The position numbers were made by a program, and so were the translations under genes. From assembly GCF_009914755.1 (NCBI RefSeq), contig NC_060926.1: a stretch of 64,000 bases of DNA; one strand, 5' to 3'. The notes beneath the pieces were generated by a model. The model searched no databases. It saw only the letters and a list, made by a program, of their open reading frames with translations, and was not told the origin of the DNA. Each line of letters starts with the position of its first letter. Position 1 is the first letter of the stretch. Positions 49,401 to 53,700 of the stretch are shown here, one piece after another. The DNA is from the human T2T-CHM13v2.0 reference genome, Homo sapiens.

Positions 49401-50265
49401 TCTATAATTGGAATAAGGAGAGTATTCCCTAACCGACTGCCTCACAAAGATCAAATATATCCTCTATGAAGGAATGATAACTTCCTCTGGAGACTCATAT
49501 TCCATTTATAATTTATTTATACAAAAGAACAGCCAGTCTATAAGCACTTACTAAACAATGTTTCATTACTTTAAGGGAAGCATTGTTATGTTTTACATTG
49601 AGAACGGTATCGTGGAACGATTAGAAATGAGTACTTATCTTTAGGAAAATAGACTGAAAAAAATTGCTAGGCATACACGAGGAAAGATAAAGTGACTAAA
49701 TACCAAGAGATGCTAGAAAACAGAGTAACTTAACATATTCAAAATAATATAAGACAGGACTGAAAATTTCTACAGAGTTGAAATCTATAAAAAGATCAAA
49801 TGGAAAACCTTCAATTAAGAAATATGCTAACTACAGTTAATAACTAAACAGATGGCTCAAACAGAAGAGTGGGCATATCTGTAGAGGAAGACAATATTTC
49901 AATAGAACATATACAGTATAAAATATAAATCCCAGAAAGATAGGAGGGTAAAAAAGAGAGAGAGGTGTGTAAGATAGATAAGAAACCTGCGTAACTTGTA
50001 TCTCAGAAGGAGAAAAGACAGAGGAGAAAAGAAGGTATAAATGGCTGAGCACTTTCTAAAACTAAAGAAAAATACCAACCTGTAGATTCAAGAATTTCTG
50101 CAAACCTCAAGTGAGAAAAATATTGAGTGAAATTCAAGAAGAAAAAAGAAAATCTTAAAATAAGCTGGAGAAAAAAGGCACATTAGCTTTAAGGAAACAA
50201 CAATAATAATGAGAGGCACTTCTTAGAAATAAAATAAAATAAAAAACCAATGTAATGATAGCTTC

Positions 50266-50766
50266 TTTTTTTTTTTTTTTTTTTTTTTAGATAAAGCAGG
50301 TCTCTTCTGCGTATGAGCCTGTAAAATCAAAAGCAAGTTAGTTACTTCCTAGATACTCCGGGGGTGCAGCCGTTGGGTAAATACACCTTTCCCAGATGGA
50401 AGAAATTGGCCAGAACGAAGGCCCCATGCAAGTCCGAAATCCAATGGGGCAGTCAAATCTTTTCTTTTTCTTTTTTTTTTGAGACAGAGTTTCGCTCTTG
50501 TTGCCCAGGCAGGCTGGAGTGCAGTGTCGCAGTCTCGGCTCACTGCAAGCTCCGCCTCCCGGGTTCATGCCATTCTCCTGCCTCAGCCTCCCGAGTAGCT
50601 GGGACTACAGGTGCCCGCCACCACGCCCAGCTAAGTTTTTGTAATTTTAGTAGAGACGGGGTTTCACCGTGTTAGCCAGGATGGTCTCGATCTCCTGACC
50701 TCGTGATCCGCCCGCCTCGGCCTCTCAGAGTGCTGGGATTACAGGTGTGAGCCACCACGCCAGCCC
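50266..50766 (-). mobile_element. Composite insertion: AluY + A-tail + THE1-internal segment + poly(A)
   Basis: Alu at 50481-50766, A-rich tail at 50461-50480, THE1-int at 50289-50460 and T23 at 50266-50288. All lie between TSDs gtaatgatagctt (50252-50264, 50767-50779). Confidence 0.92.
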
Positions 50767-53700
50767 GTAATGATAGCTTGCTTTTTAATAACTAGCAATA
50801 ATAATTGATAAAATAGAATTTAATGCACATCAAAAATAGTCATTTCTAATGAAAGTGAAACCAAAACATTTCAAAACAAACATCATTAGCAATAACTTGG
50901 CATCAGTAAATCTACTGAAACACACTAAGTAAAATTCTTCAGACCAGAAAAAGAAGAAATGATGGCGTATAGAAACAAGCAACAAAAGAAAAGATGAAGA
51001 GCAATGGTGAGGGTAAATATGTGGATTAATCTAAATGAATATTGACTGCATAAAATAAAAATCAGATTTTTATGGAGTTTTGTCTATACAAATAATTAAA
51101 ATTATGCAATTAATAGCACAAAAGGAGGTACATGAAGAGAATAAATAAAATTACAATACTTTAAATGTTTAAAGTCTTGCACTTTCCTAGAAGGAGTAGA
51201 AATACTAATTTTAACTATATTTTATTTTCAGTTATACATATGAACTCTGTAGTTTAACAACTGAAAAAATGCGTTAAGGAATTTAGAACAGAAAAACAAA
51301 TAAGGCAAAAATATAATAACAATAATTAGTTCAAAAGTAGGCAAAAAACAAAAAAATCAAATACAGAACAGTGAGATAAATAGAAAAAATTAGTATAATT
51401 GTAGAAATAAACATGAATATACTAGAAATTCCATCAAATGTAAACAGACTAAGTATTCTAATTAAAAGACAAAGATTATGAGAATTAATTTTAAGAAAAT
51501 GAATTTTATTCTATTCTACTTTAAAGAAACTCAGCTTAAATATGAAAATACAGAAAGGTTGAAAATAAAAGCATGAAAAGAGATATAGGCTGCAAACACT
51601 AACCAAAAGAAAGTTAGTGTAGCTATGTTACTGTCAGACAAAATTGACTTTATAAAATGAATTATCACTAGAGATAAAGATGACATTTCATGATGATGAA
51701 ACTGTCAGTCTATCAGGAATATATAAAAATTCAAAATTTGTATGCATCTAGGAAGAAAGTCTCAAAGTATTAAGCAGTCACAGAGTAAAAAAGAGAAATG
51801 GATATATCTGCAATCATAGTGGGGAATCTTAACATAACCTTTCTCATTACCCGGTAGAACAAATGGACAAATTTGGATTTGTAGATAGTTTGAACAACTG
51901 CAGAATACACAATGTTTTCTTATTCCTATAGAATGTTAACCATAATTGAACATGTCAAGCCATAAAGCAATTTAAACAAGCTCAAGGGTTGAAATCTCAC
52001 AGATTATGTTATTTGCAATAGTGGAGCTAAAGTAGAAATAAATAATAAATTGAAATCTAAAATTTTTTTCAAAGTTATGCAAATTAAGCAAAAATACATT
52101 TGAGTAAGTCATAAATAAAAGAAGAAATCACTATGGAAATTAAATTGAATTCTAAAATATGTGATGCAACAAAAACTACTTAAAGGGAAATTTATATCAC
52201 TATCAGAGAAACACAGTGTGAAAAGTAATAATTTAATATACAGTTCAAAATATTAGGAAAAAATAACAGAAAATTAAAATGAAAGAAAGCCAAAGGAAGA
52301 AAATATGAAATGTAAAAAAAAATTTAAAAACACATAGAGAAGATGCACAAAAATAGACAATGACATAGTGAACAGATACAATTGGTACAATTGGAACAAT
52401 ACTGTAAGGACTAATCAAAAAGAAAATTGAGAAAGCATAAATTACCAATATCCTGCATACATAATTAGAAAATATAATAAAAGGAATGAATACTAATAGA
52501 TTCAAAATGTTAATTGAAATTGACAAATTCCTTGAAATCACAATTTATAAAATTTGCACTAAAAAATATAAAAAACTTTAATAATCTAAAATTTATTTAA
52601 GTAATGTAATCCATAATTTGCAGCCCAGGTGACTTCACCTGTGAAATCAAAAGATAAAATTTTTAAATTTTTAAATAAGAATAATAATTAAACATAAAAT
52701 CTTCCAGAGAACTAAAAAATAAAAAAATAAAAATACTTTCTAATACCTTTTATGAATCTGTGTAAGTTTCTTATCAAAATTTGACAGGGACTTTACAAGA
52801 AAGACAATTTAAGGGCCAATCTTTCTCTTAAATACAAATGCAAAAACCCTAGGCAATATAATAGCAAACTGAATTTAGTTATATAATATGCTAATACATT
52901 ATATCCAAGTTGATTTATTACAAGGATAAATATTGTATAGCCTTTACGAATTAATAAAATTTACAAAATTAATAAATTTAAGGGCAAAACTGCACAAATA
53001 TTTTAAAAGTTGAAAATTATTTGATAAAATTTACACTCTAAGTGTTAAAAAATTTTTAGCTAACAAGAAAGGCAAAAAGACCTTCTTCAATCTGTTAGAT
53101 GGCACCAAAAAAAAAAAAAACCATTTTATTTAATAGTGACACCGGAAAAAGGTAGGAAGCTCACTATCACCACATATTTTCAACTTTGTACTGGAGTTCC
53201 TAGCCAGGGCAATAAAGAAACAAAAATAAATAAGCAGTATAACATTTGGAACACAATATGTAAAACATCAAATATTCACATATTGTATCATTTTAGGTAT
53301 AGAAACCCAAAGGAATCTAGAGTTGAATGATAAAAAGTTATGAGTACATTTAGAACATTTATTGAATAAGGACCATGTAGAACAAACAATAATATATTTT
53401 ACATATTACTAGTATAAAGAGAATGAATTTTTATTTAAAAAATGATATTTACAATTCATTGAGCAATATTTATTTTCTAGGAATAAATCAAACCAAAGAT
53501 ATTTAAGATCCATGTGCTAGCAAACTACAAGACATTACAGAGAGAAAAAAATATCTGCTAAGTGTAGGGATATACCATGTTCATGAACTGAAGGATTAAA
53601 TAGTTAAATATGTCAATTTTTCCTAAATTAATCTATAAATTCAGAACCCTAATTAATATCCTAGCAGGTGTTTTGGTGGAAATTAATAAGCTAATTCTAA

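What the first reader, a model, noticed from the sequence alone, without database searches (positions are those of the whole stretch)
50252..50786. Apparent Alu 3' transduction: AluY plus THE1-internal DNA moved as one retroposon
Seen in the sequence (minus strand): TT|AAAAAGCAAGCTATCATTAC, full AluY, A-tail, ~170 bp of THE1-internal DNA, A23, then GAAGCTATCATTAC. One TSD pair (13 bp exact, ~20 bp with one indel) and a canonical TT/AAAA L1-endonuclease site enclose both parts, and the host L1M resumes on both sides. The extra segment starts AAGATTTGACTGCCCC. In MaLR-int this follows ...GGAGCTTT (compare the homolog at 3116-3130), an endonuclease-type TT/AAGA site. Inference: a source Alu had inserted into a THE1 provirus elsewhere, and a read-through transcript carried its flank here. 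Established knowledge: 3' transduction is common for L1 and SVA but rarely described for Pol III Alus. If siblings exist, this is a small Alu-THE1 composite retroposon family.
Basis: partly seen in the sequence, partly recalled or inferred. Interest (0 to 1): 0.85.

Follow-up and report, generated by a model that had tools for sequence, protein, structure and literature searches.

The report
Alu plus THE1 flank, one insertion
A single old retroposon insertion carries a whole Alu, its A-tail and 172 bases of another repeat (THE1), a rare co-mobilised flank that looks more like a hybrid joined through Alu homology than a clean Alu read-through.

Summary
On the minus strand, a 13-bp exact TSD (19 of 20 with one indel) at a TT/AAAA site encloses five parts. 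They are a full-length Alu, a 20-nt G-interrupted A-tail, 172 bp of THE1-internal DNA, A23 and the second TSD copy.

The Alu-tail/THE1 junction falls on a recurrent L1-endonuclease nick site in THE1-int (GGAGCTTT/AAGATTTGACTGCC). At least 29 other THE1 copies carry independent Alu (26) or L1 (3) insertions at that nick, against 1,948 matches to the intact site. A pre-existing Alu-in-THE1 donor is therefore plausible.

I found no donor and no sibling in T2T-CHM13; the best THE1 match is 85-87%. The fragment contains two TTTT runs and no poly(A) signal, which argues against simple Pol III read-through.

The Alu looks mosaic. It is Y-type at 5 of 5 body markers but has an S-type 3' end, with a 4-bp duplication between the last body marker and the S-type states. 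That marker/tail combination occurs 33 times, against 24,360 with the usual Y tail.

My best reading is an RNA spanning an old Alu's tail and its THE1 flank, joined through Alu homology to a Y-type Alu. The join came either by reverse-transcriptase template switching or by annealing to a resident AluY. Classical Alu 3' transduction remains possible but is a minority reading. Ape orthologues would decide.

The parts
50767..50786 (-). 5' target-site duplication AAAAAGCAAGCTATCATTAC, preceded by TT (TT|AAAA L1-endonuclease-type site)
50535..50766 (-). Alu positions 1-232, Y-type body and full length from position 1. It differs from the majority of 17 Y-type reference copies at 11 positions (4.7%; 5 CpG-type).
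50481..50534 (-). Alu positions 233-286. It has 8 mutational events against the Y majority. These include the S-type tail states (+A at 268, G>A at 276, G>A at 265) and a 4-bp duplication at positions 253-256 (window 50511-50514). I read this as the 3' end of an older S-type Alu.
50461..50480 (-). Internal Alu A-tail, A10 G A5 G A3. It is G-interrupted, unlike the pure terminal A23.
50289..50460 (-). 172-bp fragment of the internal part of a THE1-type LTR element. It starts at the AAGATTTGACTGCC nick site and has a 9-bp deletion relative to most copies. TTTT runs lie at 50329-50332 and 50323-50326. No poly(A)-signal hexamer is present.
50266..50288 (-). Terminal poly(A), 23 uninterrupted A. 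It sits where THE1-int copies read CAGATGAGAC, so THE1 does not encode it.
50252..50265 (-). 3' target-site duplication GAAGCTATCATTAC. Together with the preceding As it matches 19 of 20 positions of the 5' copy.

Best explanation
This is an L1-mediated composite whose 3' portion of roughly 250 bp was reverse-transcribed from one RNA. That portion comprises the last 30-50 nt of an S-type Alu, that Alu's old A-tail, 172 nt of its THE1-int flank and a new poly(A).

The RNA was transcribed across a donor locus where an Alu had earlier inserted at a recurrent L1-endonuclease nick site of a THE1 element. The 5' portion of about 230-250 bp is a Y-type Alu that was joined to this cDNA through Alu-Alu homology, with a 4-bp slip. 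The join could have happened in two ways. In the first, the reverse transcriptase switched template from the donor RNA onto an AluY RNA. In the second, the cDNA was primed in the A-tail of an AluY already resident at this site and annealed to it. In the second case the visible TSD is that of the resident AluY.

Shown: the anatomy, the single outer TSD, the recurrent nick site, the absence of a donor or sibling in this assembly, and the unusual marker combination in the Alu.

Inferred: that the Alu tail and the flank were contiguous in a donor, that the join lies inside the Alu, and which of the two joining routes applied. How the donor RNA acquired its 3' poly(A) is unexplained.
For: (1) One TSD pair encloses everything and no inner TSD exists.

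(2) The A-tail/THE1 junction is exactly the nick used by 26 independent Alu and 3 L1 insertions in other THE1-int copies. That is 29 of the 37 matches to A10+GATTTGACTGCC; the window itself is 1 and 7 are unrelated. The intact site has 1,948 matches. Independence of the fills follows from their differing subfamilies. Of 23 Alu-filled distinct copies, 13 are Y-type, 7 S/J and 3 undetermined. One is Yb8-like. TSD lengths run from 6 to 18 bp in the 18 that could be measured.

(3) The window Alu has the Y state at 5 of 5 body markers but carries the tail ACAAGAGCGAAAC. Genome-wide, the Y marker GGAGCTTGCAGTGAGC is followed by that tail 33 times and by ACAGAGCGAGAC 24,360 times. Of 10 sampled from the other 32, only 3 were truly Y-bodied.

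(4) Alu positions 233-286 carry 8 events in 54 nt, against 11 in 232 nt upstream (Fisher p=0.013). A 4-bp duplication lies between the last Y marker and the first S-type state.

(5) The internal A-tail is G-interrupted while the terminal A23 is pure. This fits an older tail carried inside a newer insertion.

(6) There is precedent for both joining routes. Law and Burns report 452 TSD-bounded insertions with a full-length sense Alu upstream of a truncated L1 and attribute them to template switching or RNA ligation (PMC13174262, passages). Wagstaff et al. found that 6 of 226 de novo Alu insertions were completed by recombination with a genomic Alu, giving chimeric Alus whose 5' part is the genomic copy and whose 3' part is the incoming one (PMC3415434, passages).
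Against: - No donor locus was found, so contiguity of the Alu tail and flank in a donor is inferred and not seen.
- Without the three tail-diagnostic states, the excess divergence of the Alu 3' end is not significant (5 of 54 against 11 of 232, p=0.20).
- Y-bodied Alus with this tail do exist as ordinary insertions (L099, L105, L106). One of them, L085, even sits at the same THE1 nick site. The window Alu could therefore be a plain member of a rare lineage.
- The recombination events described by Wagstaff et al. lacked direct repeats, whereas this locus has a good TSD. That fits only if the nick fell in the resident Alu's own tail.
- The 3' end of the carried RNA has no poly(A) signal and no encoded A-run.
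- The prior frequencies I used to weigh the models are rough estimates of my own.
Confidence: 0.5

Rival explanations
1. Classical Alu 3' transduction. A single source Alu sitting in a THE1-int element was transcribed from its own Pol III promoter through its A-tail into 172 nt of flank. The transcript acquired a poly(A) and L1 inserted it as one unit.
For: The Alu starts at its position 1, as a Pol III transcript would. One TSD pair encloses everything. The junction lies at a proven endonuclease site of THE1-int. A Y-bodied Alu with the same rare tail sits at this site in another THE1 copy (L085), so such a source is conceivable. Engineered Alus carrying 439 bp of cargo ahead of an encoded A-tail do retrotranspose (PMC3415434, passages).
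Against: Two TTTT runs lie inside the carried segment, and none lies at its end. In the engineered Alu, such runs had to be removed for Pol III transcription. There is no encoded A-run or poly(A) signal where the A23 starts. No source was found at 88% identity or better. L085's flank is no closer to the window than any other copy. The model does not explain the S-type tail and the 4-bp duplication. A screen of 118,489 full-length AluY in this same assembly confirmed no Alu transduction (10.1101/2024.04.29.591526, whole text read).
Confidence: 0.12
2. Two ordinary, independent events. An AluY inserted first and made the visible TSD. Later a short 5'-truncated retrocopy of some THE1-containing RNA landed in its A-tail. 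The second TSD would then consist of As and be invisible.
For: Nothing in the anatomy excludes it. The G-interrupted internal tail next to a pure A23 fits an older tail and a younger insertion. The truncation point AAGA offers microhomology to an A-tail. Nesting of retroposons at preferred positions of older ones is common (PMC2836564, passages).
Against: The truncation point would coincide by chance with the one nick site of THE1-int that 29 other insertions used. The fragment has another AAGA, and THE1-int has more, so I put the coincidence at roughly 1 in 10 or lower by my own estimate. The Alu's rare S-type tail would be a second, unrelated coincidence of at most 33 in 24,393. The retrocopy would still lack a poly(A) signal.
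Confidence: 0.15
3. An end-to-end template-switch or RNA-ligation chimera of two unrelated RNAs. A complete Alu RNA, tail included, was fused to a truncated polyadenylated THE1-containing RNA, as in the known Alu/LINE-1 and U6/LINE-1 chimeras.
For: The architecture matches: a full-length sense Alu 5' of a truncated poly(A) copy, within one TSD and at an endonuclease-type site. This is the architecture of the 452 Alu/LINE-1 chimeras (PMC13174262, passages).
Against: The junction would coincide by chance with the endonuclease hot spot. The rare Alu tail and the 4-bp duplication remain unexplained.
Confidence: 0.06
4. An older composite of an S-type Alu plus its THE1 flank was mobilised in the AluS era. 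Most of its Alu was later gene-converted to Y-type at this locus.
For: This would explain the S-type tail, the old-looking A-tail and the failure to recognise a donor. If the event is old, a donor would be no more similar than any other THE1 copy (window identity to other copies has a median of 0.83, and the median among the others is 0.85).
Against: It needs two rare events. The conversion tract would have to run from the very first bases of the Alu to about position 230-250. The model does not predict the 4-bp duplication.
Confidence: 0.08

Closest known systems
L1 and SVA 3' transduction
   Same: An element, its own A-rich end, a stretch of donor flank and a second poly(A) all lie inside one TSD pair at an L1-endonuclease-type site.
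   Different: L1 and SVA are Pol II transcripts that read past a weak poly(A) signal to a downstream one, and the source locus is usually identifiable. Here the element is a Pol III SINE, the segment contains TTTT runs and has no poly(A) signal, and no source was found.
Alu/LINE-1 and U6/LINE-1 chimeric insertions (Law and Burns 2026, PMC13174262, passages seen; the earlier 'chimeric retrogenes' of Buzdin and colleagues are recalled, not read)
   Same: A full-length sense Alu lies upstream of a 5'-truncated polyadenylated copy. One TSD and an endonuclease-type motif are present. The proposed mechanism is template switching or RNA ligation.
   Different: The 3' partner is a fragment of an LTR-element interior and not L1. 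The junction is a former endonuclease nick site. The apparent join lies inside the Alu and not at its tail.
Retrotransposition completed by recombination with a genomic Alu (Wagstaff et al. 2012, PMC3415434, passages seen)
   Same: The result is a chimeric Alu whose 5' part would be the resident copy and whose 3' part is the incoming cDNA.
   Different: Those 6 of 226 events lacked direct repeats and often deleted DNA. Here a clean TSD remains, which requires the nick to have been in the resident Alu's own A-tail. The incoming RNA was not an Alu RNA but a transcript with an embedded Alu end.
Reported Alu-linked transductions: the AluSx3-WaluSat composite and one Alu-monomer case (both known to me only as cited in 10.1101/2024.04.29.591526)
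   Same: An Alu and adjacent non-Alu DNA lie within one TSD pair.
   Different: WaluSat composites form a family on acrocentric arms. This locus is a singleton with no sibling.
Insertion hot spots of Alu inside older repeats (Levy, Schwartz and Ast 2010, PMC2836564, passages seen)
   Same: Many independent Alu and L1 insertions fall at one position of a target repeat family.
   Different: I did not see this particular THE1-int position named in the passages I read. Their supplementary tables were not opened.

Membership tests
3' transduction by a retroposon | One TSD pair encloses the element plus the extra segment, and there is no separate TSD for either part | tested here: met
   Outer repeat is 13 bp exact, or 19 of 20. 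The Alu-only and THE1-only tests both scored 4, at or below their shuffle means.
3' transduction by a retroposon | Two A-tracts are present: the element's own tail, and a terminal poly(A) after the carried flank | tested here: met
   A10GA5GA3 at 50480-50461 and A23 at 50288-50266.
3' transduction by a retroposon | A source locus exists where the same element abuts the carried sequence, which continues beyond it | tested here: not met
   The best flank match is 85-87%. The private 30-mer is found only in the window itself at up to 3 mismatches. None of the 29 filled sites is close. Only this one assembly was searched, and the DNA searches scored only 40 of about 2,400 candidates.
3' transduction by a retroposon | A transcription end signal lies at the end of the carried segment and not inside it (TTTT for Pol III, AATAAA-type for Pol II) | tested here: not met
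   TTTT occurs at fragment positions 129 and 135 of the first 171 positions scanned. None lies at the end, and none of 16 poly(A)-signal hexamers is present. The donor's own sequence is unknown.
Template-switch or ligation chimeric retrocopy (Alu/L1, U6/L1 type) | A full-length sense small RNA or Alu lies 5' of a 5'-truncated polyadenylated copy, within one TSD at an endonuclease-type site | tested here: met
   Family features are taken from PMC13174262 (passages).
Template-switch or ligation chimeric retrocopy (Alu/L1, U6/L1 type) | The two parts come from unlinked loci | tested here: inconclusive
   The junction at a recurrent endonuclease site and the S-type Alu tail suggest that the Alu tail and flank were linked. 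No donor was seen.
AluY subfamily | Y states at the diagnostic body positions (positions chosen from recall, then checked against 17 Y-type and 33 S-type copies fetched here) | tested here: met
   5 of 5.
AluY subfamily | Y-type 3' end (ACAGAGCGAGAC) | tested here: not met
   The window has ACAAGAGCGAAAC. The counts after the Y marker are 33 against 24,360.
THE1-type (MaLR) LTR element, internal region | The fragment is an interior part of a multi-copy element bounded by long direct repeats | tested here: met
   The site has 1,948 matches. Copies continue on both sides of the fragment. Direct repeats are 86-88% alike and spaced 1.89-1.93 kb apart in L013 and L019. The name THE1-int is recalled; no repeat library was available.

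The most novel reading that the evidence does not exclude
This is a genuine Alu-driven 3' transduction. A source Alu lodged in a THE1 interior, and since lost from or absent in CHM13, was transcribed past its own tail and through two weak TTTT stops. The RNA was adenylated and inserted by L1. It would then be a TSD-verified case in the very assembly where a screen of 118,489 AluY confirmed none.
Probability: 0.12. Interest if true: 0.65.

Novelty: new member of a known kind. Interest (0 to 1): 0.4.

Why it matters
Alu is the most numerous human retroposon, yet a dedicated screen of this same assembly confirmed no case of Alu carrying flanking DNA (10.1101/2024.04.29.591526). This locus is a structurally clean case of non-Alu DNA travelling with at least the tail of an Alu inside one TSD.

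If the join inside the Alu is real, it shows a way for host RNA with an embedded Alu end to be completed as an apparently full-length Alu insertion. Screens that demand a matching source and subfamily would miss such events.

The locus is a single, old, intergenic insertion. No gene or functional element is annotated at this spot in the table supplied with the finding. Its value is mechanistic only.

The recurrent nick site in THE1-int, with at least 29 independent fills, is a convenient natural sample of L1-endonuclease target choice. It belongs to a known phenomenon.

Tried and rejected
1. Alu-bearing THE1 subfamily. My first idea after one search was that the Alu-in-THE1 loci are copies of one Alu-bearing THE1 subfamily. 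I rejected it because the Alus differ in subfamily and the TSDs differ in length.

2. Source candidates, all rejected.
- L002/L081 has a similar two-G A-tail and S-type tail, but its flank is 85% identical and shares only 2 of 17 private bases.
- L009 shares 4 of 17 private bases but lacks part of the site.
- L085 has the same rare Alu type at the same site, but its flank is not among the closest copies.
- L010 and L026 share the 9-bp deletion but are unfilled and only 85% identical.

3. Siblings through the 4-bp duplication. The 29-mer found 6 other places. The fetched ones are unrelated S-type or other Alus.

4. Paralogous empty site. The 5' flank has 21 weak short paralogues and the 3' flank has 3. 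None spans the site and none is shared. Neither the empty site nor the host repeat could be shown.

5. Pfam scan of the translated flanks, to test the L1M host.

7. A first Alu classification with over-strict motifs gave only 2 Y and 1 S reference. I discarded it and replaced it with the column-based. The rough motif table is likewise superseded.

8. Searches for 'Alu transduction' phrases found 2 papers. Konkel et al. 2015 (PMC4607524) contains no occurrence of 'transduction'.
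Full report
WHAT IS THERE

Read on the minus strand, the region has the following parts.
- GTTATT | AAAAAGCAAGCTATCATTAC at 50786-50767.
- A full-length Alu at 50766-50481.
- An A-tail A10 G A5 G A3 at 50480-50461.
- 172 bp of the interior of a THE1-type LTR element at 50460-50289.
- 23 uninterrupted As at 50288-50266.
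- GAAGCTATCATTAC at 50265-50252.

The outer repeat is 13 bp exact, or 19 of 20 with one missing C. It abuts the first base of the Alu on one side and the poly(A) on the other. Only 2 of 2000 shuffles of the AT-rich flank reached its score, even without that positional constraint. Neither the Alu alone nor the THE1 piece alone has a flanking repeat. Both tests scored 4, at or below their shuffle means. Rfam gives two sub-threshold signal-recognition-particle RNA matches on the minus strand that cover the two Alu monomers.

I could not confirm that the host is an L1M. The flanks have only short, weak paralogues and none crosses the insertion point.

THE THE1 PIECE AND ITS START POINT

The own genome (T2T human) could be searched. 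The 172-bp piece belongs to a family with thousands of copies. The 22-mer GGAGCTTTAAGATTTGACTGCC, which spans the start point, has 1,948 matches at up to one mismatch. In unfilled copies the piece continues on both sides. It lies between direct repeats that are 86-88% alike and about 1.9 kb apart, so it is interior DNA of an LTR element. The name THE1-int is recalled and was not tested.

A query spanning the Alu tail and the THE1 piece returned 13 loci in which an Alu sits inside THE1-int at the same junction. These are not copies of one ancestral arrangement. The Alus belong to different subfamilies: S-type, Y-type, one Yb8-like with the 7-bp duplication, and one 5'-truncated. Their TSDs all start at AAGATTTG but differ in length.

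A pattern of ten As abutting GATTTGACTGCC has 37 matches, against 2 for the reversed control. I looked at all 37. One is the window, 26 are THE1-int copies with an Alu at this nick, 3 are THE1-int copies with an L1 3' end at this nick, and 7 are unrelated. Three further fills (L004, L008, L009) were seen but escape the pattern.

Among 23 distinct Alu-filled copies, 13 were Y-type, 7 S/J-type and 3 undetermined. TSD lengths ran from 6 to 18 bp in the 18 that could be measured. In two loci (L068, L088) the duplicated site was hit a second time.

So GGAGCTTT/AAGATTTG is a recurrent L1-endonuclease target. Roughly 1.5% of copies are filled there (29 of 1,948). By my own rough reckoning from recalled genome-wide Alu and L1 numbers, that is about a hundred times the uniform expectation. 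Such hot spots in target repeats are a known phenomenon (PMC2836564, passages).

NO SOURCE, NO SIBLINGS

- All 29 filled copies continue downstream into THE1-int or, in one case, into a later Alu. Only the window copy stops after 172 bp with poly(A) and a TSD.
- A search with the first 171 bp of the piece (50290-50460) scored 40 of 2,365 candidates. The best non-self hits were 85% identical.
- A 30-mer holding six window-private bases has no other match at up to three mismatches.
- The 3' terminal 31-mer has 12 other matches, all at three mismatches.
- Across 49 other distinct copies, identity to the window has a median of 0.83 and a maximum of 0.871. That is no higher than the median identity among the other copies themselves (0.85).
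- 17 of the 171 window bases compared are minority states, and no copy shares more than 4 of them.
- The two copies that share the window's 9-bp deletion (L010, L026) are unfilled and only 85% identical.

The DNA searches score only the best candidates and only this assembly was searched. With those limits, there is no donor at about 88% identity or better and no composite family.

WHY PLAIN POL III READ-THROUGH IS AWKWARD

- The carried segment contains TTTT at positions 129 and 135 and none at its end.
- None of 16 poly(A)-signal hexamers occurs in it.
- THE1-int copies read CAGATGAGAC where the A23 begins, so the poly(A) is not encoded by THE1.
- In the engineered Alu of Wagstaff et al., 439 bp of cargo could be carried. 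That worked only ahead of an encoded A-tail and after runs of four Ts had been removed (PMC3415434, passages).
- Halabian et al. screened 118,489 full-length AluY in this same assembly. They flagged 633 with a distant 3' TSD, found possible sources for 24 and confirmed none. Their criteria required a source at 90% identity or better and a TTTT downstream of the carried DNA (10.1101/2024.04.29.591526, whole text). This locus would fail both. I could not see their supplementary tables, which may list it.

THE ALU IS NOT UNIFORM

At five body positions that separate Y-type from S-type copies, the window Alu has the Y state in 5 of 5. The positions were chosen from recall and then checked on 17 Y-type and 33 S-type copies fetched here. 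Its 3' end, however, reads GGGCAACAAGAGCGAAAC, the tail seen in the S-type fills L004, L008 and L009. The Y-type fills read GGGCGACAGAGCGAGAC.

Genome-wide, the Y marker GGAGCTTGCAGTGAGC is followed within 28-40 nt by ACAAGAGCGAAAC 33 times and by ACAGAGCGAGAC 24,360 times. Of 10 sampled from the other 32, seven were S-type Alus with a chance change in the marker and only three were truly Y-bodied.

A 4-bp duplication (Alu positions 253-256) lies between the last Y marker (position 218) and the first S-type state (position 265). The same duplication in this context is rare. The 29-mer has 2 exact matches including the window, and 5 more at one mismatch.

Against the Y majority, positions 1-232 differ at 11 sites (4.7%; 5 CpG-type). 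Positions 233-286 carry 8 events in 54 nt (Fisher p=0.013). Without the three tail-diagnostic states the contrast is 5 of 54 against 11 of 232 (p=0.20).

I read this as a Y-type body joined to the end of an older S-type Alu.

Against that reading, Y-bodied Alus with this tail exist as ordinary insertions (L099, L105, L106). One, L085, sits at this same THE1 nick site. At the rate of 33 in 24,393, finding one among 13 Y-type fills has a probability of about 0.017. I cannot explain that coincidence. L085's flank is not close to the window's, so it is not the donor.

MODELS

(a) Homology-joined chimera, my best reading, about 0.5. An RNA ran across a donor in which an S-type Alu had filled the THE1 nick site. 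L1 reverse-transcribed it from a 3' poly(A), through 172 nt of flank and the old A-tail, into the Alu end. There the cDNA was continued on Y-type Alu sequence, either by template switching onto AluY RNA or by annealing to an AluY already resident at this site after priming in its A-tail. In the second case the TSD is the resident's.

Both routes have precedent. Law and Burns report 452 TSD-bounded Alu/LINE-1 chimeras (PMC13174262, passages). Wagstaff et al. report 6 of 226 de novo insertions completed by recombination with a genomic Alu, giving chimeric Alus with the same polarity as here, although without direct repeats (PMC3415434, passages).

The model accounts for the outer TSD, the full-length 5' end, the mixed Alu, the slip, the hot-spot junction and the old-looking inner tail. 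It does not account for the poly(A) on the donor RNA.

(b) Two independent events, about 0.15. A short truncated retrocopy landed in the tail of a resident AluY, and its own TSD is hidden among the As. This is the ordinary explanation and the anatomy cannot exclude it. It requires the truncation point to coincide with the hot spot and the Alu tail to be rare by chance.

(c) Classical Alu read-through transduction from one source, about 0.12.

(d) An older S-type composite later converted to Y, about 0.08.

(e) An end-to-end chimera of unlinked RNAs, about 0.06.

The weights rest on rough prior frequencies of my own and on the Alu-tail evidence. If that evidence is discounted, (b) rises.

AGE

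The Y-type part differs from the Y majority by 4.7%. By the usual primate neutral rates (recalled) this puts the event very roughly 15-30 million years ago. That is an inference only, because no primate genomes were available here.

VERDICT

The specific mechanism proposed, a read-through transcript of one source Alu, and the hoped-for family are not supported by what can be tested in this assembly.

The locus is best filed with L1-mediated chimeric retrocopies. A real but minority chance remains that it is a true Alu transduction. Orthologous sites in other primates would settle both the order of events and the age.

Noticed in passing
L060-L096 and L002-L028 (other chromosomes of the same genome); site GGAGCTTT/AAGATTTGACTGCC of THE1-int: A recurrent L1-endonuclease hot spot in the THE1 interior. 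Among 37 pattern matches there are 26 Alu and 3 L1 insertions at one nick, against 1,948 matches to the intact site. The Alus are of different subfamilies, one of them Yb8-like (L007/L060), and TSDs run from 6 to 18 bp.
   Followed up: yes
L068 (C19:6.57 Mb) and L088 (C14:60.8 Mb): The hot spot was hit twice. After the first insertion's TSD copy of AAGATTTGAC(T/A)GCC a second Alu follows directly, so the duplicated target was reused.
   Followed up: partly
L085 (C10:76,705,131): A second Y-bodied Alu with the rare S-type tail (ACAAGAGTGAAAC) sits at the same THE1 nick site, with a 17-bp TSD. Its flank is not close to the window's, so it is not the donor. The coincidence (about 0.017 by the rate) is unexplained.
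   Followed up: partly
L099, L105, L106: Three ordinary Alu insertions have a Y-type body at 5 of 5 markers and the S-type tail. All also share the CATCCTGGCTAACAC form of the left arm. They may be a very small mosaic lineage or recurrent mosaics.
   Followed up: partly
L010 (C2:16,835,986) and L026 (C19:7,759,208): Two unfilled THE1-int copies share the window fragment's 9-bp deletion (CCTGTAGCC) but are only 85% identical overall. This could be a recurrent deletion between short repeats or a minor sub-lineage.
   Followed up: partly
   Followed up: partly
window 50582-50633 (-) and 50502-50565 (+): Sub-threshold Rfam matches to mir-1268 and mir-3135 inside the Alu. Both score below gathering, as expected for Alu-derived miRNA families, and are not evidence of a miRNA gene.
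   Followed up: no
L018 (C11:23.06 Mb): This THE1-int copy has a roughly 20-bp tandem duplication (TGCCTT..TCTCAGATGAGAC) just where the window fragment ends.
   Followed up: no
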